A stretch of DNA of 63,762 nt, the filler included, from Diploschistes diacapsis (lineage: Eukaryota): the NCBI GenBank assembly GCA_023645945.1. It is 22 parts of 22 records of this genome, joined end to end, with 100 filler letters (N's around TTAATTAATTAA, not from the genome) between each part and the next. Parts side by side here need not be neighbours in the genome. Positions count along the whole stretch, not along the records: positions 1 to 19,297 come from JALAIB010000376.1; 21 more parts are not named here. One strand, given 5' to 3'. A program made the position numbers and the translations under genes. Positions within the stretch are counted from its first letter, which is position 1; each line of letters starts with the position of its first letter. Positions 1,807-53,843 of this stretch are shown here, in pieces. Below the pieces are notes generated by a model. The model was not told the DNA's origin and did not search any database. It saw only the letters and a list, made by a program, of their open reading frames with translations.

Positions 1807-2625
1807 ATAATATTGCAAAGACTTTCGAGATTTGCTTTGAATGGGCCTGAGATATTGTCTAGCGAATCTCATAAACGGAGATCCGAAGGCTGGGTTACTT
1901 CTCCCTTAGGCACTGGGGGCGATATACCCCATGACTCCAGAACTTTAGCACTGCATCTTGAGCGAGGATAAAGTGAGAGTTCAGTGAGAAAAGATTAAGA
2001 TATTCTGAAGCCATCCATCATGCCATCCACGGAGGCAATATGTGGCTGACAGTGGTAGGTCATGGACGGCGCGTTTGCTCAACTCGAGATAACTGCAAAG
2101 AGTAACGTTCTCACCTTCTAGAGGGGTGCGTAGGTTGCTCTGGTTTCCGGGAGCGCCCGCTCATACTAATGCAAGAAGTCGTTTTTAAGTTGACGGGAGG
2201 ACGGGAAAGGCGCAGTCATTCCGACGCTTAGTACTTAGTTCTTAACAGCCAATACTTTGGCAGAAGCCTTTCTCCTTTCCAATCTGGAGAAGAGTGCGCG
2301 GGGTAGCAACATCTGCTCTAGTCATAGTGGTGTGTATCATTCTTGCTCAGCTCCACAGTCATGGGCTCGCTCAGCACAGCGGAACATGGCGGAAGGCTGT
2401 TATTTTCCAGCACAATCCTCTTTGTTTTCTAACGTGTGGAGAGTCGGTCCCGATTCACTTCATATTTTCGCTGAATAGAGGCCTGCTCTAGAGTCCTTTT
2501 TCTTGCTTTCGCAGTAGACTTTCGAAAAGAGATACCTTAGCGCCATGGAAACACTCAGAGACAAGCCATCGATCTTGAACCTTCGTGAGTTCTCCTAGCT
2601 TTTCTACCCTTGACCGCTCAAGCTT

Positions 2626-4079
2626 ATGACCTTAGACTCTGGGCGAAGCACGACCTGCGCGCAAGATATCAACCAAGACGAAAGCACCAAGGGGACTGCC
2701 TCCCCTTCCTCAACAGACCCCCCCAGCAACGCCAACAACGATGAGGACATCGACGGCGGTCTCCTCGCCTGGAGCCAAGTTCTAGCAGGCCACCTGGTAG
2801 CCTTCAACGCATGGGGCTACATAACCTCATACGGGCTGTTCCAAGCCTACTACACCGCAACCCTCGGCCAAACACCCTCCAACATCTCCTGGATTGGATC
2901 GATGCAGATATTCCTGACCTTCGCTCTAAGCACATTCTCCGGTCACGCACACGACACGGGCCACTACTTCCCCATCGTGGTCGCAGGGCTTGCCTTGCAA
3001 ATTCTTGCCATTTTCGTCACAGCCCAATGCACGACCTACTGGCAGCTACTGCTCGCCCAGGGCATCTGCCAGGGTATCGGCAACGGCCTCGCCTTCTGTC
3101 CCACCGTCAGTCTCGTGTCCTCGTATTTCGTCCGCAAGCGAGCGATGGCTATCGCCGGCATGGCGTCTGGCATGAGCACAGGCGGCATCGTGTTTCCGCT
3201 CATCGCGCAGCAGCTGCTTCCTTCGCTGGGCTTTGCCTGGACGATTCGAGTCATGGGCTTTGTGATTCTGGCCAATTCTGTGGCTATTCTGCTACTGGTG
3301 CGACCGCGGCCGGTGAGGGGACCGGTGGAGGGCAGCATCATCATCCTGGCTGCGTTGCGAGAGCCGAGTTATGTTCTCTTTGGCGTCGGGATGCTAATGG
3401 CTGTGATGGGGATGTATTTCGCTTACTACTATGTGCGTCTTGCCACTTTGCTTTCCCTTTTACTCTTTTTTTTCTTTCTTTCTCCGTTGAGCTCATCAAC
3501 TGCTTCCGGGAATTACTTACTGATCAGACCCTATCTTTCGCCGCACACTGACGACGGCATCAGGTAACCCCTTTCGCGCAGGACATCATCCATTCCGACG
3601 CCACAACCTCGCTCAGCCTCCTGCTTGCCGCAAATGCAATCGGCCTTCCAGGCCGCATCGTCCCCGCCTTTCTAGCCGATCGGTTCCTCGGACCAACCAA
3701 CGTGCTCATTCTCGTCATCGCCATCTCCGGCATACTCAACTTCTGCTGGGCCGCTGTGGACTCGTTGTCGGGAACTTGGGCCTTCGCCGTCGTGTGCGGC
3801 TTCTTCGGTGCTAGCGTCCAAAGCATGTTTCCGCCGGCGCTGGCCAGCCTGACCGCAGACAAGAGGCAGGTGCACGGTCGCGTGAGCCTCATGTTCTCGA
3901 TCATCAGCTTCGGCACGCTGTGTGGAGCGCCGATTGCCGGGGCTTTGATTCAGAGGGATGGAGGGAGCTATCTCTATGCGCAGGTTTTTGTTGGGTGCAT
4001 TATGCTTTGTGCGGCTGTTTTGTTGGGTGGGGCGAAGGGGGTGAGGTTTGGTGAGAAGGGGGCTTGGGGAAGGAGCTAG
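2626..4079 (+). CDS. MFS monocarboxylate-porter-like transporter (MCH family)
   Basis: DGGLLAWSQV...WGYITSYGLFQAYY...SNISWIGS, YFVRKRAMA motifs; intron 3433-3563 joins ORF 2626 to the frame of ORF 3702. Confidence 0.88.
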
Positions 4080-6255
4080 GTGGGCATATGGGAATGCGGA
4101 GGGGACATGTAAGATACCTTGCCGCGCTTTTGGGCTTTCGGCGCGCAATGGCGGTACTGTATGATATCATATAGACGTCAAGGCGCTCGACATAGAAAGC
4201 GCTTGTTAAGAATGAGCTTCCTTCCGATGGATCAGACCTCGGTGGCTATCTTTGTTTCAGCGAGAACTAAAGCTCGGACCTCAATACTTTCTCTAGGCGG
4301 TGCATCTTTTGGAACATCCCTTTACCGAAACGACGAATGAGGGCAACCTGGCCGCAACAAAAGCCGTCAGCCTGGTAAACCGCTGCAATACGTAGAGAAG
4401 GTGAGACGCAGCATCAAAGAGTTGTTCACCTGCGTGAACAAAATTGCCGAGGGCAGGAAGGATAGGAATGGGGACTTGCACCTCGCTTCCCCCGCCATCA
4501 GCTGAGTTGATGGTGCATGCACCAGGCCGGACCTGGACGGTGCGTGCGTCGCAGATGGCCAGCGGTTATAGAACCGTGCTGCGGAGTGGGCGCCAGATGC
4601 TGCCTTTGTTAGCAAACGCTTGCTCGAGCCAGGCTTTGCGGAGAAGGGCGATGGGGGTTAGTGTACGAGCCCGCCCAGGATCAAGACATGGGGATGAGCA
4701 TTCGTTCGTTTCGCCTCGCTTGCGGTCTTCCAGTCGTTTCTTTGCCAGCATGTAACGGTGTGAAGTGAGTCTGCGCACTTGATGATGCGGAAACGGCTGA
4801 GGAGCGTCAAATCGCCATCGTTCGACCGAGCTGATCTTTCAGGCAATTGGCAGCTCCGACTGGTGACTGATGTATTCCGTACATTTCATTCGTATAGCTG
4901 TTTGTCGGGACTTTCTACGGCTTTTCGGCTTTTCGACCCTAAGGACTTGAGATTAGCGTTCACATAGCTGACTTGCATACATGCCCGCCAATCAAAGAAG
5001 AAGAAGATCTTATCCCGCTCCCGGCACCTCCTTCTGTGGGTTCTCCCAGTGCCGGCAGATAGTGTGTCTCGACTAGATTCGGGTCTAATGTCTGGCATAT
5101 GCAGTCCCGCTCAGCTCAGATGTGCAGCCAACATTCGATCTTTCGAACCCGCATGACTGGCTGCAGGGTTTTCTGCGGTGAAAACTTGCGAAGTACTAGC
5201 ATGAGGGCCAGCCTATAAGAGAGATAGAACAAGAATAACGGAAAAAGGAGCTCAGAATGCCTATAAAAAGGACTTCTTATCGCACCGATTCCAACTGTCT
5301 TGGGCACATCGAACTATCTTTCAAGCTATTCCACTTTGCCATCCAATTCTGAGACTAAGCTCCAACACCACCCACCTCTATCAATCAAAAATGCCCGGGC
5401 CCAACCAACAAAACTATCTTCAATCCGTCCTTGCCGGCGCTGGCAAAGACAACCGCCAACAGCCGTGGAAGAACCTGGCTGCTGTCCAAGAGCCAGCCGA
5501 GGAACCTAAGAACGAGCTTATCCCCGTCAACCCAGCCTGCAACGTCCAGAGCTTGCTATTCGATTAGGTGCGATGTGTAATGAATAGATTCTAGGCGGAA
5601 GGAAGGACTGAAGGTGCCGCCAGAGCAGCTGCCAGATAAAGCCCCCGTAGCTAAAGGCATTTGGATTTCCGGATGGGGAATAGCGGTCGCGATATATTCG
5701 TTTTGGATACCTCGGACAGACGGAAGATGCATACTTTAGCTAGGACACCCCATGCACATAAGTTACTGCATGTGCTTGGAATCAATATCAATTGTCCCCC
5801 TGCGCTGTGCCCTATCAGTAACAACAGTGCCGAGGGGGCGTAATGGGAGCACGCCGCAGCATAGATTCGACTGTATTCCACTTTCTAGGAGTACATTGGA
5901 ACCATGCTGGAGTGATTTGAATATAGGAGGCGCTATTTGGCTGTCAGATTATGTCAGATTACGATACAGCCACGGCTCTTTAGTATTTTGGACCATGGTA
6001 CCAACACGGGTCTTGATATAAGGTATTTTACACCCAACTTGGTAACACTCATCAAGTCTAACAGCATTGCTTGAAAAGGCCAGGGCGGATGCGGAGAGAC
6101 GGAGCCCTGTTGCCTGTGCCCACCACCACCACCACCACCTGACCTCTTTTGCCCGTGACAGCGAAGTCACACTACGCGCCGGGCACAACAACAGAATGCT
6201 TTAAAATGAAAATTTCATTCACCAAAAGCCTCCCCCGGACCATCGCGCTCTCATC

Positions 6256-6900
6256 ATGCCAGAAAGGCCTTCATTCCAGCTCTGCGGAGTCTACGACGGC
6301 TCATACCCAGCCACGCGCTGGCTCAAGAAATTCGAGCATGAAACCCACGACTGCCACGATGCGCCATTCTGCCTCCAGAGCCTAGACATGCTGCTCAACG
6401 ACGACGCCGCCGACTGGGCCGAATGCAACATCGAATGGCAGCGCTTGCTCACAACGCCCAGTCAAGCTTCTCTGGACAAAGCCAAGGAGCTTCTCTGCAC
6501 CCAATTCCCTGCTTTCATGGGCAAGTTCCCAGAACTCCGTCGAGAACTCGCCGGCCTGCAACAGAACGGCCTCTCGAACGCAGAGTACTATCATAGGGCC
6601 CTCGACATTCTGCGACAGGCTGCAGGCCACGATCGAGTACAGGGAAACCTGGCCTTGCCACCTATCGAGCATGTTCTGCTGAGTGCTGTCATCTCAGCTT
6701 ATGTACGGGGTCTTCCCCATGGATTACGACCGGTGGTGGCTGGGCACGTGGACTCATCCCATGTACCTTTGGCCCAGCTACATGATTGGGTCGATCTGGA
6801 GAGTTCCACACGGCAGGATCGTCTCCATTCAGAGGTGGTTCCACGTCAGTTGTTGCCGCTAGGGTGTCCGGAGTTTTTTCCTCTTCCCATGTCGAACTAG
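6256..6900 (+). CDS. Solitary retrotransposon Gag capsid-like protein (214 aa)
   Basis: Intronless ORF; YDGSxPAxRWL, LLxxDAxxWA, LxQxxxSxxEYYxR and YVxGLPxxLR motifs resemble Ty3/Gypsy capsid; no pol or LTR seen nearby. Confidence 0.6.
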   Translation: MPERPSFQLCGVYDGSYPATRWLKKFEHETHDCHDAPFCLQSLDMLLNDDAADWAECNIEWQRLLTTPSQASLDKAKELLCTQFPAFMGKFPELRRELAGLQQNGLSNAEYYHRALDILRQAAGHDRVQGNLALPPIEHVLLSAVISAYVRGLPHGLRPVVAGHVDSSHVPLAQLHDWVDLESSTRQDRLHSEVVPRQLLPLGCPEFFPLPMSN

Positions 6901-7456
6901 CTGGTCGTTATAGCACAATAGCTCTAGCGCTGGTCGGACTATATGAATGGACCAAGATCTTGGAATGTTCCATATCCCTGAGTGCTCAGATTGCAAGTGG
7001 TTGCAATTCTGGTCTGTCACACTTGCCAGCAATTTTGAATGACCGAGGCAAGTAAGCTGGATGGCTCAGCTGTAATGTGATAGTTTGTTATGGGTAGGGT
7101 TTGGACATCGCTCAATGATGGGGTACATCTGAGAACTTGCTTTGAAGATGAAATACCCAGGAAGGATCGGACGAACAGCCACCTTTGCTTACTAACCCCA
7201 AGTTCAAAGTTTCTTCCAAAATAAGCATTGTCGCGTAATCCTCCCTACGATGTCGATACCTCGATGTAAAGGTTAGGACGCTTTGACTGAAGCGAAATCA
7301 GGCCCGCGATCCTTCATAACTTACCACATCGAGGAAGCTAGCTAGCCACGTCATTTAATTTATGAAGACTCGCTGCCCGCTATATCCGAGATGCGAAAGG
7401 GTGATTTTACTTGTCAACTCTGTACTCAGAGCTACAGCAATGCTTTCAGCTACACC

Positions 7457-8266
7457 TCATAGTCCGACCTCCCAAGGCTTCACAGAAAAACCCTCAATAT
7501 ATGGCCCATCCTTGGGCCTCCACATGATCCACTCATCCAGATCCGACCACTCCCGCTCGCACTTCTTCCACGCCTCATCCGGATCCTCCGTGACAGGTTT
7601 CAGCCGATTATGCTGTACGACGGTGAATCCAAAAAGCTCGTACACCGGCTTCCCGTAACGGAAGGCATCGAGCCACATTTCCACGCCCATCTCGGCCGCT
7701 TTCTTGACTCCCCATTCAAGGATCAGCCGAGCGCCACCCCGGCCCTGATAACTCGGGTGCATGAAAATGATGTTCAGGACTGATTGGCATTAACGCCCAT
7801 CCGATTTACCCCAAGCAAAAAGGAAGCATGATCAAACATGAGAAGCAAACTCACAAACGTGGCCCCTCCTTGCCCACTTTTCCCTAACAGCCTCATGCTG
7901 CGCGACCGCTTGGCTAGCAAACTCCCTCTGTCCACCCTCAGGATGCCAGTAAGCCGTGTGGTGCTCGGGTTCCTCGTATGGATTCTTCGTATTGAGCTTC
8001 CATAGCGCCGCGCCTGCGACCTCACCGGGTCGTTCTGTGTCAACGACTTTCTGCCAATAACTACTAGGATCAGACACGTGCCATTCCCAGAAGCGATCGG
8101 TGCATTCCTTCAGAGCGGAGGCGCGGTCTCCTGCCACCGCGCCCACGGGGTTCATGGGGCAGAAAAGCCTGAATAGGTGTTGTTCGGGATTCTCGAAGGC
8201 GTCCCAGAGACAGGCCATTACGGGTGGGAAGTCCGAGGCGACGACGTCTTGGAGGATGAGGGGCAT
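7457..8266 (-). CDS. GNAT family acetyltransferase
   Basis: Exon 1 MPLILQDVV...GAALWK; intron 7780-7854; exon 2 FMHPSYQGRGGARLILEWG...GKPVYELFGF (acetyl-CoA-binding motif). Confidence 0.85.
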
Positions 8267-8377
8267 GCTGAAGCGAGAGTATTGACACCGTCTATGAAAA
8301 GATGGGTAGGGAAATGCATTTCTAAAGTACAAGCTGTCAAATGGGAGCTTAGTCATATGTTAATCGTAACTAGGTTA

Positions 8378-8586
8378 ACGTCTTTCCCCAGGAAACGGAA
8401 CACCCCACGAAGCGGAACACTACATTATAATGTAATTACGCTAGATAGTTCTAAGCGAGCTTTTGAGCCCCACAACCACACATAAAATTATTTGTACGAA
8501 ACTAAATCTATTTTCAACTACATTATACGAAGGTGCAGGGATTGTATTCCGCTTCGTTGGGTGTTCCGTTTCCTGGGGAAAGACGT
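8378..8586. mobile_element. 209-bp MITE, Fot1/pogo (Tc1-mariner) type
   Basis: About 43-bp TIRs starting ACGTCTTTCCCCAGGAAACGGAACACC (2 mismatches), TA on both flanks, no ORF. Confidence 0.85.
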
Positions 8587-8890
8587 TAAGTTAAAAAGAT
8601 TAACCTCCATATTATAATATTAAATAATCCACCTCCCATTAATTCGTTACTCTGCGGCGGCGAGGGTGTTGTTGTCTTACTTACCTTACGCCGGCTCCCT
8701 AAGAGGCACCCGAGGCTTATTTACCTGAGACCCCCCGGGAGCTCAGCCAAGTGTCACCTAAATCGCGCGACCTTAGGGCGGCCGTCACCCTAGTCCGTAA
8801 GAGGGCATCGGCAAGCTTGGGGAACTCTTCCCTGCTTCATCATCGTCGGTCCGCCTTTTGAGCTCTTTCTCCTAATGCTTGCTTGGATCA

Positions 8891-10487
8891 ATGTCGAACA
8901 CACACGGGGTACCAAACCCTCTGAGACCCTATCACATACCTCAACCGACTGTTCATCAACCTATAGATATATCTTCAAACCCAAGCATTCCCCCCTCTGC
9001 TGGCCGACCTCCCAAACCGGCACAGCCGGCGGAACATGGCTTGGGCTCCTCCGCCCGCGAAATGCTCTCGGAACTCGACTATTCGGAATATCTTTTAGAC
9101 GCATCACCCTCGGTGCTCGAGGTAGTCAAAGGGCTACTAGATCAGGGGTTATGGAAGTACACCAGCGTACTTATGGCGCAACCGTTTGACCTCGCTAAGG
9201 TTGTACTGCAAGTGCAAGATGCGGGTGATGTGAATGATGAAGAGGAGGAAAGTGAGAAGCCAAGGAGCAACGCAACCTCGCGCACAAAGCCCTACGACGT
9301 GAGCTCGGAGCATTTCCACAATACATTGTTGAAGCTAAGCTTTGTAGCTACCCTCTGACGATTCGGACGATGACTCCCAATCCTACTTCACATCTACCGC
9401 ACCCAGACCTAACCCTTCTCGCCGTGCTCGACGGCAATACACATCGTCTCGCTCTACCTCCCCTTCGACTCCTCGATCAAGACGCGGCGCCCGCTCACCT
9501 CAGCCCCAAAATCAAGCCTATGCAAAAGTGCCACTGTCAACGTCGTCCATTACCGCGGTTCTCTCCAGATTATGGAGAGAAGAGGGTGCCTGGGGAGTTT
9601 GGAAAGGAACAAACAGCACATTTTGGCACAGTGTTCTATTCTCGACTATATCCTCGTTCTTGAGATCGTTCCTCTGCGCGATTCTGGCTCTGCCCGATCC
9701 AGCGCATGCAACTGTTGCCTCATTTCCCTCGCCATCCTCTCTCGCTCGACTTGACTTGTTTTCTTCGCCGTCTCCCCTGCTCTCTCTACTTGTCTCTGTT
9801 TCAGCTGCTGGGATAGCTGGGTTGGCTCTAGCGCCACTGGATATTGCGAGAACCAAACTATTATTAACGCCTTCAACAAATGGTCCTCGTTCGATCCTGC
9901 CCACGATAAGGTCTATTGGCTCATGGGTGCTGCCGCTATCGATTGCTCCTGTGACCTTTCTACATTCTATCCTTCCTACCTTAATATTGGCTTCAACTCC
10001 TCTGGTTCTCCGATCTCGGTTAGGGATCGATCCGCTTACTACACCTACTGCGTGCACCGCCGTCGCCTTCTTCTCCCAGGCTGCCGAACTTGGAATCCGA
10101 CTACCAATCGAGACTGTACTACGGAGGGGCCAGATGGCCATTGCCAAGGACACGTCCCCGCCCTCGACGCCGCGTTCATCGAGATCGGCATCGAGTTCGC
10201 TGCAAACTACCGTGAAACTGGGGAGATACAAGGGTCTGTTCGGAACCATGTATCACATCGTCAATCAAGAAGGCAGTAGGAAAGTGTCTTTGTCGGCGAG
10301 CAGCTTAGCTCGAAGCACGGGGGCTGCGTCAACAGCCAAGCCTCAGCCAACCAAAGGACAGCGAAGGAAAGGCCAGGGTCTGGAAGGACTTTGGCGAGGA
10401 TGGAGGGTCGGCGCCTGGGGTCTTCTTGGGATTTGGGGCGCTGGCTTGGTGGGTAGTGGTCCGGGCGGTGGAGGAAGCGAATTTTGA
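8891..10487 (+). CDS. UGO1: Mitochondrial outer-membrane fusion protein Ugo1 (carrier-like)
   Basis: N-terminal PNPLRPY, QPFDLAKVVLQV, EGAWGVWKGTN, APLDIARTKL, LPIETVLRRGQ, GLEGLWRGWRVG; intron 9299-9347. Confidence 0.88.
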
Positions 10488-11237
10488 GAATTCGGACTTG
10501 TGCGGCTCGACGAATAATGATTCTGGCGACAGGCGTCTGACTGGATGGGGGGTTTTTTTTTTGAACTAGAAAGAAGGCATTCTTCAGCACCTTGGCTGGC
10601 ACGGCTGCGGTCATCTCTGCATTAAGTTAATAGGAGATTAGTGGTGGGTCACCTGTATATAGCATAGCCTCCTCTCTCTGGCTAGAACAAAGACACAGCT
10701 TACTTGTATATAGGACTGTACAATACATGTTTCTTTTGGTAGCCTTCGTGGCACTTGGCTCGGTGGTAGCGAAGCCATCAAGCGTTCGGTGGTATGTGGA
10801 GCTCGTTGTGGAACCGCCCAGGCACTACCCGCGTTTCCTGATAGGCCGCAACGGGAAGGTTTGGCGGCTCGCTGCGGCCGAATCTAGTATGGGCTAAATA
10901 CTCTATTATCCTTGGCACGCGTTGTCAACGGCAGCACGGTTTCGGATGCGGGGGTACGGCCAACCTCCCCGCAAAAGGGGCTCCAGCAAGATGATCCGGG
11001 ATGATGAGGTCTAGAAAGCAAATCTCGCAGAATGCTCCAATCCCATGCCCCGGTCTGGTTTAGCTCTGCTTAAGTGCTACGCGGATCTTGTGTGGGATGG
11101 AAGGGGTCCAGGATGATGCGGGGGCTGTCACAGGTCTTATATCAAGTGCCACTGCACCGATCTCCTGTATCATAAGTGCACAATAATAGCTATTGCAATC
11201 CAAGCTTTGCAGGCAATACAAATTAACCCACAACACA

Positions 11238-37463: not shown

Positions 37464-38159
37464 GCTGCTATAGTATCCTAGCCGCCTTGGCTAATCGATA
37501 TCGCTCACGAGATATGATGCTGCATGAACTTAAGGTTGTAGGCATTGCCCCGGCTGTTTGAAGAACCTTCTCATGGTGAAAATAGTGCTGAGGATGTAAT
37601 GCTGCAAAGAATGATCCGTAAGCAGTTGTCAAGGAATGCTGACATGACGTCGGAAATAAATATGTACTCAATTGCTAGCGCACTATAAGACTTATTATAA
37701 GTCGCGAGCCACTTCGCTGGTGAAATGCTAGCCTTACACTAACGATTGAAATAGTTTACCTGCTTTAGCTCCTGTTAGCCCAGCCGAATAGAAACCTTTA
37801 TTATAAATGACATATTTAGGGTGTTTCTGGCCAGGAAAAACCGTAAACAACAAATTAACTCCGAAAGCTACCGAATACATTACGTTTCCCCAAATCTTTC
37901 ATGACAATGAGAATCATTATCGTATATAAACATTTAAGCGGATTTGGGCGGATTTAAGCCGTATTCAATCCAAATTTAACTTTTGATTTCAGTATATGGG
38001 AAATAAATACGTTTATTCCTAAGCGAAGCGCAGGACTATATTGGCATATTAGTGTGTTTATGGGCGCAGAAAAAACCGTAGATAAGAAATTAACTCCGAA
38101 AAGTCGTGTCAAGGGTTGGATTGGCTGACTGAACTGAACTATTACGTGGCATCTTTTTT

Positions 38160-38530
38160 TGCATCTACTGCTTTACCTACTGCTTTCACTTTCGCACCTA
38201 TTGCTTTCGAATCTACTGCTTTCGAATCTACTGCTTTTGAACCTATTGCTTTTAAACCTATTACTTTCGAATCTACTGCTTTTAAATTTATTACTTTTAA
38301 ATCTATTACTTTTAATTCTATTACTTTTGTCTCTATTATATTTAAATCTATTATTTTTAAATCTATTATTTTTAAATCTATTATTTTTAAATCTATTACT
38401 TTTAAATCTATTACTTTCATATTTATTGTTTTCCTGTCTACTGCTTTCGCATTTATTGCTTTTAAATTTATTATTTTCGTATTTATTATTTCGTATTTAG
38501 TGTTTCCGTATTTATTACTTTTGAATCTAC
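38160..38530. repeat. 15-bp minisatellite (TTTCGAATCTACTGC-like, about 24 units), RIP-eroded
   Basis: Units differ mainly by C>T and G>A changes, e.g. TTTTAAATCTATTAT in the centre. Confidence 0.9.
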
Positions 38531-38536
38531 TGTTTT

Positions 38537-38688
38537 TGTTAAACAGACAGGCAGAAGGCATGGCTGGGAGTACGACTGAGTTCCAGAAGGAGGTTCAGTT
38601 CAGCTGAACCCCGAGGTTCAGTTCAGCTAAATTTTCTAGAATCCTAACTAGACCGGTTTAGAAATAGTGTAAATAATAAAACTTAGCG
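38537..38688 (+). mobile_element. LTR family A (Copia-associated), truncated by contig end
   Basis: TGTTAAACAGACAGGCAGAAGGCATG...GTTCAGCTGAAC shared with 44400-44614, 51691-51930, 59269-59477. Confidence 0.8.
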
Positions 38689-48074: not shown

Positions 48075-48951
48075 CTAGGCAGTCACCTGGCACGTCACAG
48101 CTAGTCGGGCACTTCCCAACCATTCCTTGTATATAGCCAATCACGGACGCTAGGTCACGTGACTGACAGATATTCAGTAACAGACATCTGTTAGGGACAG
48201 ATCTGCCTAAACAGTTATTTATTAGTAACAGCTCTGTCGTAATAGTTCTACTGTCGGTAAATAGCTATCGCTTTAAATTATATAAGAATATCGTTATGGT
48301 TTTTTTAAATCGAGGCGTGTTTATTTTTATAAATATATTTAGCGATTGCTCGAGATTAATTTATATACGAGTCGACGGCGATTCGCTTACGATATCTTTA
48401 TTATCTATTTTGTTAATTATTAGAACGTATATTCGTTAACTTTTATTAAACGGATAATAATCTTTTTAAAAATTAATATAAATCTATAACCGATTTATTC
48501 TTTTTTTATTATATTTTTCTTTTAATAGAAATTAAATTATTTTAATTAATATTTCGTGTTTATATTATAAAGATAAAGATTATTATACTTAAATATTTTT
48601 AAAAATAAATATTTTAAATAATATAATCGGGCGATTATTATTATAAATTAAGTCCGTATTAATTTTAATAATATTAAAATTCGATACGATTATGACGGAT
48701 ATTACGGTGTTATGATCTCTATCTCTACNNNNNNNNNNNNNNNNNNNNNNNNNNNNNNNNNNNNNNNNNNNNTTAATTAATTAANNNNNNNNNNNNNNNN
48801 NNNNNNNNNNNNNNNNNNNNNNNNNNNNGGGAAGGGGGGTTTCGGAGGCGTTTCCCCCAATAAAATAGATCCCCCTCTCAATCCCACTTCGCCACGCCCA
48901 TCCCAAACACCAGCATACATGCCCACTCTTCCATACTAACCCAAGCCCCCA

Positions 48952-49982
48952 GCGTAACGCCCTTCAACACCTCGCACGCCTCCCTCCTCGAGACGCCGTC
49001 GGAGCACAACTTCGGCGACGACTGCCCCATCTTCGACGGGCTGTACCGCTACTGCACGCTCTACTCGGGCGGCACGCTGGACGCGGCGCGCAAACTGACG
49101 TCGCAGCAGTCGCAAATCGCAATAAACTGGTCGGGCGGGCTGCACCACGCGAAAAAGAACGAAGCGTCGGGCTTCTGCTACGTCAACGACATCGTGCTGG
49201 CGATCCTGCAGCTGCTGCACACGCACCCGCGCGTGCTGTACATCGACATCGACGTGCACCACGGCGACGGGGTCGAGCAAGCCTTCTGGTCGACGGACCG
49301 GGTCATGACGCTCTCCTTTCACAAGTACGACCCGAAGGAATTCTTCCCCGGCACGGGCGCGCTGTCGGACACGGGGCCCAAGTCGCACGCGAACCCGGGC
49401 TCGCACCACACGCTCAACATGCCGCTGCACTCGGGGATCGAGGACGAGCAGTACGTGCGGCTGTTCCGGGACGTGGTCGGCCCCGCGGTGGCGGCCTTCC
49501 GGCCGTCGGCCATCGTGCTGCAGTGCGGCGCCGACTCGCTGGGCGGCGACCGGCTGGGCTGCTTCAACCTGAACATCAAGGCGCACGGCGCGTGCGTGCG
49601 CTACACCAAGTCCTTCGGCCTGCCCCTGCTGCTGGTCGGCGGCGGCGGCTACACCGCGCGCAACGTCGCGCGCCTGTGGGCCTACGAGACCGCCCTCGCC
49701 ATCGGCGCCCCGGACATCGACGCCAGCCTGCCCATGCACACCCCCTTCCGCGACCACTTCCGCGACGGCACCCTGTTCCCGCCCCTCAGCGAAATGGGGA
49801 ACAAGTTCTCCAACATGAACGACCGCCGCTACCTGGAGAGCCTGGTGCAGGGCGCGCGCGAGACCCTGAGGTATGTCAAGGGCGCGCCGAGCGTGCAGAT
49901 GAGTCGCATTCCGCCGGACTTGGGCGGCTTGCGGGAGGAGCTGGAGAGGGAGGTTGGGCGGTGGAGGAGGGAGAGGGAGGAG
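48952..49982 (+). CDS. HOS2: Class I histone deacetylase, Hos2/HosA type (partial at both ends)
   Basis: [45 protein letters not shown]...[24 protein letters not shown]; begins after CTAAC...CAG acceptor. Confidence 0.88.
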
Positions 49983-50082
49983 NNNNNNNNNNNNNNNNNN
50001 NNNNNNNNNNNNNNNNNNNNNNNNNNTTAATTAATTAANNNNNNNNNNNNNNNNNNNNNNNNNNNNNNNNNNNNNNNNNNNN

Positions 50083-53040: not shown

Positions 53041-53694
53041 TCACGACTTCCTCACAAGCAAATAAACATAGGCAATCCGCAGCGCCGTAAGCTTCTTATA
53101 CGGCCCTTCGAGGTACATCAGTAGCCCACCAAAGGAGACGAACACTTTTCTGCAGTTCCCAGGGGGTCAGCACTCGGCCTCCACACGCACTCGATTCCCC
53201 TACTCCCTCCAACCCATTCCCCTCGCAGCCTCATTAACCTCATCCGGCTCGAGCCACCTGGAGCCAGGATGACCGACTCCCCGCAAACAATCGCCCCCCC
53301 ACGCAACCCAAAAAAAAAAAAAAGCGAACAAAAAGAAAGTAAATCCCCCACCGACTCACATCATATCCCCATCCCCCTCCTCGAAGCGATACACCTTGCC
53401 ATGGCACACGTAGTCGTAATGGTCCGCCAGCGTGCTCTCGCCCTTCTGGATCTCCCTCCACATCCTGCCGTCGTCCTTGCTGCCGTCGGCCGCCAGCGTG
53501 CTGGCCAGGCACAGCGACAGGTTGTCCGCGACCGCGACGGGGTACAGCTCCGTGTTGACGTCCAGGGTCAGCGCGACGTCCGGGTTGCCGGAGGTGGCGT
53601 TGGTCGCGGAGATGCGGCTGACGCGGTCGTACTTTTCGGCGTTGATCGACGTGATGGTGAAGGTCTCGTCGAACAGGATGGAGTCGGACGACAT
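53041..53694 (-). CDS. RPB8: RNA polymerase I/II/III shared subunit RPABC3
   Basis: KYDRVSRI, LTLDVNTELYP, LADHYDYVCHGKVYRFEE; intron 53150-53359; exon 2 VSFGGLLMYLEG...VYLLVRKS*. Confidence 0.95.
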
Positions 53695-53843
53695 TTTTTG
53701 GGGAGCGAGGTGGGGGATCGAGGGTAGATGGGCGAGGAGAAGGNNNNNNNNNNNNNNNNNNNNNNNNNNNNNNNNNNNNNNNNNNNNTTAATTAATTAAN
53801 NNNNNNNNNNNNNNNNNNNNNNNNNNNNNNNNNNNNNNNNNNN

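What the first reader, a model, noticed from the sequence alone, without database searches (positions are those of the whole stretch)
6256..6900. Stand-alone, un-RIPped Gag capsid-like gene: candidate domesticated retroelement protein
Seen: intact 214-codon ORF of normal GC among host genes, with no LTR, protease, RT or zinc knuckle, while every recognisable retroelement coding region in this window is stop-riddled and AT-rich. Known: YDG...WL, LLxxxAxxW, LxQ...EYYxR and GLxxxLR are Ty3/Gypsy capsid features, and capsid-only genes have been co-opted elsewhere (Arc and PNMA in animals, Ty1 p22 restriction in yeast). Inference: an exapted capsid, for example a restriction factor against related elements or a particle-forming protein.
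Basis: partly seen in the sequence, partly recalled or inferred. Interest (0 to 1): 0.72.

Follow-up and report, generated by a model that had tools for sequence, protein, structure and literature searches.

The report
Stand-alone retrotransposon capsid gene, lichen fungus
An intact single gene in a probable lichen-forming fungus encodes only the two-lobed capsid part of a retrotransposon Gag protein, and it may have been kept by the host, although selection and expression are not yet shown.

Summary
The ORF is real: 6256-6900 (+), 214 codons, GC 0.57, no RIP signature, between host-type genes.

It comes from a retrotransposon capsid.
- Pfam Retrotrans_gag is below threshold for the protein alone (E 0.0074).
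- An exhaustive phmmer search finds 120 relatives. Many pass the Pfam cut-off, and some are ~800-900-aa Gag-protease polyproteins with a CCHC knuckle.
- The AlphaFold model (pLDDT 89.6) is a two-lobed capsid. In an unbiased comparison with 48,161 PDB chains, ranks 1-34 are all retroelement capsids or capsid-derived proteins.

The ORF stops just after the capsid. No knuckle, protease, LTR or second copy was found in the window.

Exaptation is plausible but unproven. The only close relative (P0003, 46% identity) forms a long-stemmed clade with it. Both have lost the conserved Glu of the major-homology-region-like motif. Their differences otherwise avoid family-conserved sites.

Two related samples carry the ORF, diverged about as much as neighbouring coding DNA. 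One has two unlocated gap letters.

No dN/dS, synteny for P0003, RNA or whole-genome copy number could be obtained.

Verdict: a candidate domesticated gag, a new member of a known kind.

The parts
6256..6900 (+). Whole ORF, 214 codons plus stop: a stand-alone capsid (CA-only) gene derived from retrotransposon Gag
   Evidence: ORF; homology to the Gag family; identical annotated protein in NCBI nr; fold
6271..6513 (+). N-terminal capsid lobe, about residues 6-86 (helices 19-29, 36-45, 49-57, 59-66, 70-83)
6517..6831 (+). C-terminal capsid lobe, about residues 88-192 (helices 91-99, 108-121, 136-151, 158-165, 172-192)
6556..6597 (+). Major-homology-region-like motif, residues 101-114. The family pattern is L-x-Q-x3-E-x-L-x2-Y-Y-x-R. 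Here Q, Y, Y and R are kept, the Glu position is Leu106 and the hydrophobic +6 position is Asn108
   Evidence: Among 68 other family members the Glu column is E 62, K 4, D 1, T 1, and the +6 column is L 53, I 11, V 3, A 1. P0001 and P0003 both have L at the Glu column. That this spacing equals the retroviral MHR is recalled, not from a call
6832..6897 (+). Short C-terminal tail, residues 193-214. Low model confidence and no homology to the family. The nucleocapsid knuckle and protease of the relatives are absent
   Evidence: block pLDDT 62-71
4150..6255 (.). Upstream intergenic stretch with no detectable element remains. It includes a (CCA)n microsatellite at about 6119-6139, and it is rich in indels between related samples
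   Evidence: X3 pieces 5643-5832 and 5834-6083 carry 28 and 35 gap letters, and there are four 'skip' joints in 4206-4979
6901..7456 (.). Downstream intergenic stretch up to the convergent GNAT gene, with no protease, RT or LTR remains
   Evidence: X3 piece 6903-7194 has 15 differences in 292 bases

Best explanation
The ORF is the capsid (CA) domain of an LTR-retrotransposon Gag, with both lobes, surviving as a lone gene (no second copy in the window) in a gene-dense, non-RIPped part of a probable lichen-forming ascomycete genome.

Its parent family (Pfam Retrotrans_gag type) normally encodes polyproteins of about 800-900 aa: CA, a disordered linker, a CCHC knuckle and a protease. Here everything after CA, and the LTRs, are gone.

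My reading is that the gene has been kept by selection on the host, that is, exapted. It most likely still works through capsid-type protein-protein contacts. A CA-only protein with an altered major-homology-region motif would bind Gag of related elements, or itself, without building a productive particle. This is the trans-dominant mode of Ty1 p22/p18, Drt2 and RTL8.

Status of each step:
- Shown: homology, fold, truncation, absence of a second copy in the window, absence of RIP.
- Inferred: host-level selection, from the sister sequence, the constraint pattern and the divergence in related samples.
- Conjecture by analogy: the restriction mechanism.
For: (1) Capsid origin.
- phmmer gives 120 hits at E<=0.001.
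- 16 of 30 scanned hits match PF03732 at E<0.001, and 8 of those 30 reach the curated cut-off.
- 18 of 121 family proteins carry a CCHC knuckle. The long relatives read as CA-linker-knuckle-protease.
- The model has pLDDT 89.6.

(2) Not an element copy.
- There are no flanking repeats.
- There is no frame-shifted continuation and no other copy in the window.

(3) Host-like sequence state.
- GC is 0.567 and the RIP indices are 0.48 and 1.44, like the host ORFs and unlike the AT-rich blocks.

(4) A distinct lineage.
- P0001 and P0003 form a clade with SH-aLRT 99 on the longest inner branch of the tree (1.01 changes per column), nested among Gag-protease forms.
- Neither has a knuckle.
- Both have Leu at the family's Glu column (62 of 68 others have E) and a polar residue at the +6 column (67 of 68 others have L, I or V).

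(5) Continued constraint after that change.
- P0001 and P0003 are identical at 75% of the most conserved third of columns, against 24% of the most variable third (Mann-Whitney p 1.2e-9).
- Each keeps 38 of 53 consensus residues, within the family range.
- P0001 departs from only 1 of the 20 most conserved columns. The mean for other members is 1.7.

(6) Related samples (tested).
- An X3 contig covers 6120-6877 with 17 differences in 758 bases (2.2%). Neighbouring coding pieces give 43 in 1977 (2.2%) and flanking intergenic pieces 29 in 732 (4.0%), Fisher p 0.07.
- An X2 contig covers 6429-6770 with 2 differences in 342 bases and no gaps.
- No joints fall inside the ORF, whereas the upstream intergenic DNA has large indels.
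Against: - There is no dN/dS, because the difference table was cut (205 rows not shown) and lists no row inside the ORF.
- The X3 contig over 6120-6877 has 2 gap letters whose position is unknown. If they lie inside the ORF they shift the frame in that lineage.
- The gag versus intergenic contrast is only marginal (p 0.07).
- The lineage has only two known members among 5.8 billion 90%-identity clusters and 1.84 billion 50%-identity cluster representatives of about 15 billion proteins.
- DNA context for P0003 could not be fetched. Its orthology and stand-alone state are therefore untested, and at 300 aa it ends before the place where relatives carry the knuckle, so it could be a truncated element copy.
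- The site-specific constraint could in principle have acted while both ancestors were still active elements.
- 6 of 68 other family members also lack Glu at the MHR column, so that change need not disable a capsid.
- The protein alone is below Pfam's gathering score (16.9 against 24.1 bits).
- No whole genome is held, so RIP-degraded parent copies elsewhere are not excluded.
Confidence: 0.5

Rival explanations
1. It is a non-functional relic. On this reading a retrotransposon inserted here and deletions removed the LTRs, linker, knuckle, protease and pol. The remaining capsid frame is open by luck or youth and was annotated as a hypothetical protein. Its conservation pattern was inherited from the time when its ancestors were active elements.
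For: - Stand-alone 'gag domain' ORFs are common among the hits. Most of the 120 are fragments of 100-350 aa.
- The clade has only two members, and one of them (P0003) has no known context.
- There are 2 unlocated gap letters in the X3 allele.
- The divergence contrast with intergenic DNA is only marginal (p 0.07).
- Degeneration of the MHR-like motif is also what decay would produce.
Against: - No other part of an element is detectable within 2 kb upstream or 0.5 kb downstream, yet the capsid frame is complete to both domain borders.
- The nearest element Gag is only 43% identical, so the copy is not young relative to any sampled element.
- P0001 departs from 1 of the 20 most conserved family columns, fewer than the average member.
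- Changes since the split from P0003 avoid conserved sites in both lineages.
- There is no RIP damage.
- The X2 allele has 2 differences in 342 bases and no indel, and the upstream intergenic DNA is indel-rich while the ORF is not.
Confidence: 0.37
2. It is an exapted capsid that still assembles into particles, Arc- or PNMA2-like, with a cellular role such as packaging or transfer of RNA or protein, rather than acting as an inhibitor.
For: - The model is confident across both lobes.
Against: - The conserved Glu and the +6 hydrophobic residue of the MHR-like motif are lost. In retroviruses and Ty3 this motif is needed for assembly (recalled, not tested here).
- There is no nucleic-acid-binding knuckle or basic tail.
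Confidence: 0.08
3. It is still part of a mobile or non-autonomous element (a gag-only derivative mobilised in trans), or its product is used by an active element elsewhere in the genome.
For: Gag-only non-autonomous LTR elements exist in other organisms (recalled). The whole genome could not be searched.
Against: - There are no LTRs or other direct repeats around the ORF.
- There is no second copy in 63.8 kb.
- In the source run, the summed contig depth over the ORF bins equals that of the flanks (84.4-90.3 against 84.4). A real repeat at 8374-8640 reaches 13,219. The tool warns that depth is not a copy number.
- RIP has not touched the ORF.
Confidence: 0.05

Closest known systems
Drt2 of Saccharomyces cerevisiae (domesticated Ty1' Gag fragment; restriction factor). 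PMC10951436, abstract read; PDB 9rxy
   Different: Drt2 comes from Ty1/Copia and holds only the CA C-terminal domain. Restriction, transcription and association with Ty1' particles are shown experimentally for it. Here both lobes are kept, the parent family is of Retrotrans_gag (PF03732) type, no target element is known, and nothing is shown experimentally.
Ty1 p22/p18 self-encoded copy-number-control factor. PMC4599808 and PMC8458377, seen in the search listing with abstract starts only
   Same: A truncated Gag containing capsid sequence acts in trans on Gag assembly. This is the mechanism I propose by analogy.
   Different: p22 is made from an internal transcript of the active element itself and is identical to its target. 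The ORF here is a separate locus and is at most 43% identical to any sampled element Gag.
Crtg12, Crtg13 and Crtg14, co-opted gag genes of fungi (Wang and Han 2021). PMC8321522, abstract and passages read
   Same: They are single-copy gag-derived genes in fungal genomes, proposed as co-opted from synteny and selection.
   Different: Those derive from Ty1/Copia (Crtg12, 13) and Bel-Pao (Crtg14), and are shared above family level in Pleosporales and relatives and in Tremellales/Trichosporonales. That paper lists no Ty3/Gypsy-derived case in fungi. The present lineage has two known members and untested synteny. Its supplements were not opened.
Arc/dArc1, PNMA2, PEG10, MOAP1 and RTL8 (animal Ty3/Gypsy-derived capsid genes). 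PDB 6s7x, 8rb3, 7lga, 7lgc; RTL8 paper PMC11684626, seen in the search listing only
   Different: There is no detectable sequence similarity to any of them. They are independent domestications in animals with demonstrated expression and function.
Ty3 Gag capsid (PDB 6r22) and the Gag-protease polyproteins of lichen-fungus retrotransposons (P0007, P0013, P0017, P0031)
   Different: Those proteins continue with a linker, CCHC knuckle and protease. The ORF stops 25 residues after the capsid and has an altered MHR-like motif.

Membership tests
Retrotransposon Gag capsid (Pfam PF03732 Retrotrans_gag) | Score at or above Pfam's gathering threshold (24.1 bits) | tested here: not met
   The protein alone scores 16.9 bits, E 0.0074, over residues 45-153. 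P0003 gives no hit at E<=0.1. Membership therefore rests on the next two rows, not on this one.
Retrotransposon Gag capsid (Pfam PF03732 Retrotrans_gag) | Significant sequence homology to proteins that are themselves members | tested here: met
   phmmer E is 8.2e-21 to P0004, 4.5e-13 to P0011 and 1.4e-12 to P0013. Each of these passes the PF03732 cut-off (25.9, 29.2 and 28.3 bits). In all, 8 of 30 scanned hits pass it and 16 of 30 match at E<0.001.
Retrotransposon Gag capsid (Pfam PF03732 Retrotrans_gag) | Two-lobed all-helical capsid fold (CA-NTD plus CA-CTD) | tested here: met
   The model has pLDDT 89.6. In the VIA-align search, ranks 1-34 of 48,161 chains are capsids or capsid-derived proteins, and both lobes are matched separately and together. 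Foldseek gave no E<=0.001, but its top rows are capsids.
Retrotransposon Gag capsid (Pfam PF03732 Retrotrans_gag) | Major-homology-region-type motif (Q-x3-E-x-hydrophobic-x2-Y-x2-R) at the start of the C-lobe | tested here: inconclusive
   Q, Y and R are present. The Glu is replaced by Leu and the hydrophobic residue by Asn, with one residue deleted. That this motif defines the family is recalled knowledge.
LTR retrotransposon (an element copy) | Flanking long terminal repeats | tested here: not met
   No direct repeat longer than 29 nt was found in 3500-9000.
LTR retrotransposon (an element copy) | Nucleocapsid knuckle, protease, RT and integrase coding sequence next to gag | tested here: not met
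   There is no CCHC or D-x-G-S motif in the protein. Gag-protease relatives match nothing outside 6256-6897 in any frame. RT and integrase were not searched with a profile of their own.
Ty3/Gypsy (Metaviridae) superfamily origin | RT phylogeny and PR-RT-RH-INT order of the parent element | not testable with these tools
   No DNA of any relative could be fetched. The only support is the Pfam family PF03732 and Atlas neighbours with PF19259 Ty3_capsid.
Co-opted (domesticated) gag gene, criteria as used in PMC8321522 | Orthologs at the same locus in different species | tested here: inconclusive
   The X3 contig holds the ORF joined to 136 bases of the same upstream flank, and X2 holds 342 bases of the ORF. 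These differ by only about 0.6-2%. No context is available for P0003.
Co-opted (domesticated) gag gene, criteria as used in PMC8321522 | Purifying selection (dN/dS below 1) while a host gene | tested here: inconclusive
   Only protein-level and bulk-divergence proxies are available: 75% against 24% identity in conserved and variable columns, and 2.2% against 4.0% divergence, p 0.07. No codon-level data were obtained.
Co-opted (domesticated) gag gene, criteria as used in PMC8321522 | Expression | not testable with these tools
   No RNA run is listed for this DNA.
Capsid-derived restriction factor (Ty1 p22/Drt2 type) | A related active element in the same genome, and inhibition of its mobility | not testable with these tools
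   No whole genome is held.

The most novel reading that the evidence does not exclude
This would be a host-maintained, capsid-only gene of Retrotrans_gag (Ty3/Gypsy-type) origin in lichen-forming fungi. It would have lost the acidic core of its major-homology-region motif and would act as a trans-dominant poison of Gag assembly for related Gag-protease retrotransposons. That would be a protein-level defence working beside RIP. It would also be the first Ty3/Gypsy-type gag co-option described in fungi.
Probability: 0.2. Interest if true: 0.7.

Novelty: new member of a known kind. Interest (0 to 1): 0.45.

Why it matters
Gag co-option is well documented in animals. In fungi, the papers I saw describe only a few cases: Drt2 in yeast, and three Copia- or Bel-Pao-derived genes in PMC8321522, which lists no Ty3/Gypsy-derived fungal case. 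My three literature searches turned up none in lichen fungi or other filamentous ascomycetes.

If this gene is under host selection, it would extend capsid domestication to a RIP-proficient filamentous fungus. It would also offer a small, well-folding two-lobe capsid with a naturally altered MHR-like motif for testing how capsid-only proteins interfere with, or replace, particle assembly.

If it is only a relic, it is an ordinary annotation item.

Tried and rejected
- Whole-genome copy number: no genome is held for this window.
- DNA of relatives:
  - Two scans of metagenome contigs (A2 pair alignment; P0006) confirmed no relative.
- RNA evidence: no RNA holder is listed for window 5600-7400.
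- Fused or longer forms by word index: none were found among proteins of 376-2000 aa. The exhaustive search later found long Gag-protease relatives, so that blank was a sensitivity limit.
- A search with P0003 residues 1-190 returned only P0003 itself.
- Sequence search of PDB:
  - The single protein gave only a chance-level row, E 0.59.
  - The family profile matched only poly-Q proteins, through the low-complexity linker.
- Pfam on the AT-rich 38-62 kb region read through stops:
  - The substitute scan of 76 open frames found no retroelement family.
- Codon-adaptation index against pooled host ORFs: uninformative. The ORF scores 0.814, but its own +1 frame scores 0.847.
- RIP-insensitive reduced-alphabet blastn (C to T, G to A): hundreds of matches at about 60% everywhere, including host genes, so it is uninformative.
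- Earlier notes of this scan: nothing by place, sequence or words.
- Depth as copy number: the tool states that it is not one, so I use it only as a weak hint.

Full report
**1. The observation**

The window holds an ATG-to-stop frame at 6256-6900 on the + strand, 214 codons. The identical 214-aa protein is an annotated entry in NCBI nr. A Logan contig call of the same locus starts at Met45 (P0002, 170 aa).

The ORF has GC 0.567 and GC3 0.619. Its RIP indices are TpA/ApT 0.48 and (CpA+TpG)/(ApC+GpT) 1.44. Seven host-type ORFs of the window give 0.50-0.68 and 1.17-1.42. The AT-rich blocks at 38-63 kb give 1.05-1.14 and 0.44-0.65. The ORF is therefore un-RIPped and of normal composition.

It lies between three host-type genes:
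- an MFS-transporter fragment at 3702-4079 (+);
- a convergent GNAT acetyltransferase at 7457-8356 (-);
- a mitochondrial-carrier gene at 8879-10487 (+).

Only the carrier passes Pfam's own cut-off.

No direct repeat longer than 29 nt lies in 3500-9000, so there are no LTRs. They fall on the near-invariant columns of the family alignment: G15, W22, L46, A51, P85, Q103, Y111, R114, L142, G152.

None of 76 stop-free frames of at least 60 aa from 38-63 kb matched a retroelement family; only a histone deacetylase and Rpb8 appeared. The read-through scan could not be run.

**2. What the protein is**

Alone it matches Pfam Retrotrans_gag (PF03732) only below threshold: E 0.0074, 16.9 bits against a cut-off of 24.1, residues 45-153.

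An exhaustive phmmer search of 1.84 billion cluster representatives gave 120 proteins at E<=0.001. Of these, 25 were at <=1e-10 and 2 at <=1e-30, and one of the two is the window's own product.

Of 30 hits scanned, 16 match PF03732 at E<0.001 and 8 reach the curated cut-off. Two also match zf-CCHC. A regular-expression scan found a C-x2-C-x4-H-x4-C knuckle in 18 of the 121 proteins, and none in P0001, P0002 or P0003.

The long relatives (P0006, P0007, P0013, P0017, P0031; 789-915 aa) read in this order:
- capsid;
- coiled and Q/P-rich linker;
- knuckle near residue 340;
- a C-terminal retropepsin-like region with D-Q/P-G-S, ending in an acidic tail.

One hit cluster carries a source name, 'Retrotransposon gag domain-containing protein' of Letharia columbiana. 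The run that holds the window's DNA completely is labelled a lichen metagenome. The organism is therefore probably a lichen-forming ascomycete. This is an inference.

**3. Fold**

AlphaFold2 on the 70-sequence alignment A1 gave mean pLDDT 89.6 and pTM 0.66. The model has ten helices in two lobes, about residues 6-86 and 88-192, and a low-confidence tail from about 193.

Foldseek against PDB gave no match at E<=0.001. Its top rows are nevertheless Copia capsid (E 0.039), dArc1, BLV CA, PNMA2, PEG10, Arc, HIV CA and Ty1/Drt2.

VIA-align against 48,161 representative chains does not depend on Foldseek. It put only retroelement or retroviral capsids and capsid-derived proteins at ranks 1-34. The leading rows are:

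|---|---|---|
| dArc1 | 9.8 | 158 residues |
| Copia capsid | 9.3 | 159 residues |
| MOAP1 CA-like CTD | 9.1 | rmsd 2.4, 93 residues |
| PEG10 CTD | 9.0 | 85 residues |
| Drt2 | 8.9 | 86 residues |
| Ty3 CA-NTD | 5.5 | 71 residues |

Sequence searches of PDB found nothing meaningful.

**4. What is missing**

tblastn of all 121 family proteins against the window matched only 6256-6897 in frame +1 (111 alignments at E<=0.001). At E<=10 nothing continued the homology in another frame or elsewhere, and the best other row had E 0.042. Plain blastn of the ORF against the window found only itself.

Homology to the family ends at about residue 190, which is the end of the capsid C-lobe. The ORF stops 25 codons later. 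The locus is therefore a capsid-only gene. It is not a disrupted element with recognisable remains.

**5. Relatives of its own kind**

Only one protein is closer than the element Gags. This is P0003: 300 aa, 46% identity, E 1.3e-43 over residues 3-186, from an ENA assembly.
- It starts with the same Met-Pro...R-P-S-F-Q-L-C motif.
- It has no knuckle.
- It carries an extra 110-aa low-complexity tail.

In a maximum-likelihood tree (quick search, 70 rows, 262 columns), P0001 and P0003 form a clade with SH-aLRT 99. The clade sits on the longest inner branch (1.01 changes per column; tips 0.76 and 0.51) and is nested among clades that contain Gag-protease forms.

A second search with P0003 found nothing but itself. 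The lineage therefore has two known members.

**6. Evidence bearing on selection**

(a) Site pattern.
- Over 199 aligned columns, P0001 and P0003 are identical at 91.
- Identity is 75% in the third of columns most conserved among the other 68 family members, 38% in the middle third and 24% in the most variable third (Mann-Whitney p 1.2e-9).
- Each keeps 38 of 53 columns with a consensus of at least 60%. Other members keep 80% on average, with a minimum of 55%.

(b) The MHR-like motif.
- The family has the pattern L-x-Q-x3-E-x-L-x2-Y-Y-x-R at the start of the C-lobe. By recalled knowledge, this has the spacing of the retroviral major homology region.
- Among the 68 other members the Q column is Q in 67, the E column is E in 62 (K 4, D 1, T 1), the +6 column is L, I or V in 67, and the R column is R in 65.
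- P0001 has Q, Leu, Asn and R. P0003 has Lys, Leu, His and Lys.
- The Glu-to-Leu change is shared, so it predates their split.
- Outside this motif P0001 departs from none of the other 19 most conserved columns, and P0003 from one.

My inference has three steps. The lineage left the constraint typical of working element capsids. It kept the fold-determining residues afterwards. This fits host-level selection better than either an active element or free decay. The argument is weakened because 6 of 68 other members also lack the Glu.

(c) Related samples.
- Contigs of two other runs were laid on window 2500-10500: X2 (rock metagenome) and X3 (organism A).
- X3: the piece over 6120-6877 has 17 differences in 758 bases plus 2 gap letters.
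  - Three neighbouring mostly coding pieces have 43 differences in 1977 bases and no gaps.
  - Three flanking intergenic pieces have 29 in 732, with 28, 35 and 2 gap letters.
- X2: the piece over 6429-6770 has 2 differences in 342 bases and no gaps. Five neighbouring pieces have 26 in 1612.
- By Fisher tests, gag against intergenic gives p 0.07, gag against coding p 0.88, and X2 gag against neighbours p 0.21.

The ORF behaves like coding DNA, but the contrast is marginal. The position of the 2 gap letters is unknown. The difference table was cut, with 205 rows not shown, and lists no row inside the ORF. No synonymous/non-synonymous count was therefore possible.

(d) Extra copies. Summed contig depth over the ORF equals that of its flanks in X1 and X3. 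A real repeat at 8374-8640 reaches 13,219 and 29,626. The tool states that depth is not a copy number, so this is only a weak hint against near-identical extra copies.

**7. Mechanism**

*Shown:* the gene encodes a complete two-lobe capsid domain, with no nucleic-acid-binding knuckle and no protease.

*Inferred:* it is maintained by the host. I put this at about 0.5.

*Conjectured by analogy:* it acts through capsid-capsid contacts as a trans-dominant inhibitor of related Gag-protease elements. The analogues are Ty1 p22/p18, Drt2 (PMC10951436, abstract read) and RTL8 against PEG10 (PMC11684626, listing only). The altered MHR-like motif would prevent productive assembly.

The main rival is a relic with no function (0.37). 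An Arc- or PNMA2-like particle-forming role (0.08) and a still-mobile gag-only element (0.05) are less likely.

**8. Comparison with what is known, and novelty**

Wang and Han (PMC8321522; abstract and passages read, supplements not opened) report 14 deep gag co-options. Three are in fungi: two Copia-derived and one Bel-Pao-derived. They state that none had been documented in fungi before. Drt2 is a later Ty1-derived case in yeast.

Three literature searches showed no Ty3/Gypsy-type gag co-option in filamentous or lichen-forming fungi. One further search failed on a term.

If real, this is a new member of a known kind.

The claim is limited by:
- a clade of two sequences;
- no codon-level selection test;
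- no synteny for P0003;
- no expression data;
- no genome-wide copy number.

Interest is moderate.

Noticed in passing
window 8375-8589: A MITE-like inverted repeat has 46-nt arms, 96% complementary, 123 nt apart. The bin 8374-8640 has summed contig depth 13,219 (X1), 177 (X2) and 29,626 (X3), against about 85, 2-6 and 85 in the flanks. An X3 contig joins 8363 to 8681 with 36 other letters between. This looks like a very high-copy element with an insertion polymorphism at this site.
   Followed up: partly
window 48864-50027 (+): A GC-rich island (GC 0.67 in 49001-50000) lies inside the AT-rich, RIP-like region. It encodes a histone deacetylase domain (PF00850, E 3.9e-75). It is a host gene, or a fragment of one, stranded between degraded repeats.
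   Followed up: partly
window 53359-53787 (-): A second island of normal composition in the AT-rich region encodes RNA polymerase subunit Rpb8 (PF03870, E 4.1e-30).
   Followed up: no
window 38000-63762: The AT-rich third of the window has GC 0.22-0.41 in most 1-kb bins and RIP-type dinucleotide indices. It holds 1,848 N letters. In the translations printed these appear as regularly spaced masked runs.
   Followed up: no
window about 6119-6139: A (CCA)n microsatellite lies 117 bases upstream of the ORF's ATG. X3 contigs break here, with pieces ending at 6083 and starting at 6120. The 2 unlocated gap letters may lie next to it.
   Followed up: no
proteins P0007, P0013, P0017, P0031, P0006 (relatives, not in the window): The Gag-protease relatives carry D-Q-G-S or D-P-G-S where, by recalled knowledge, retropepsins usually have D-[ST]-G. 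They end in an acidic Ser/Asp/Glu tail, and no RT is found in the same frame.
   Followed up: no
window 38086-38604 (+): A 173-aa open frame in repetitive AT-rich DNA gives a sub-threshold pentapeptide-repeat match (PF13599, 31.7 bits against a cut-off of 38). It is probably a translated tandem repeat and not a gene.
   Followed up: no
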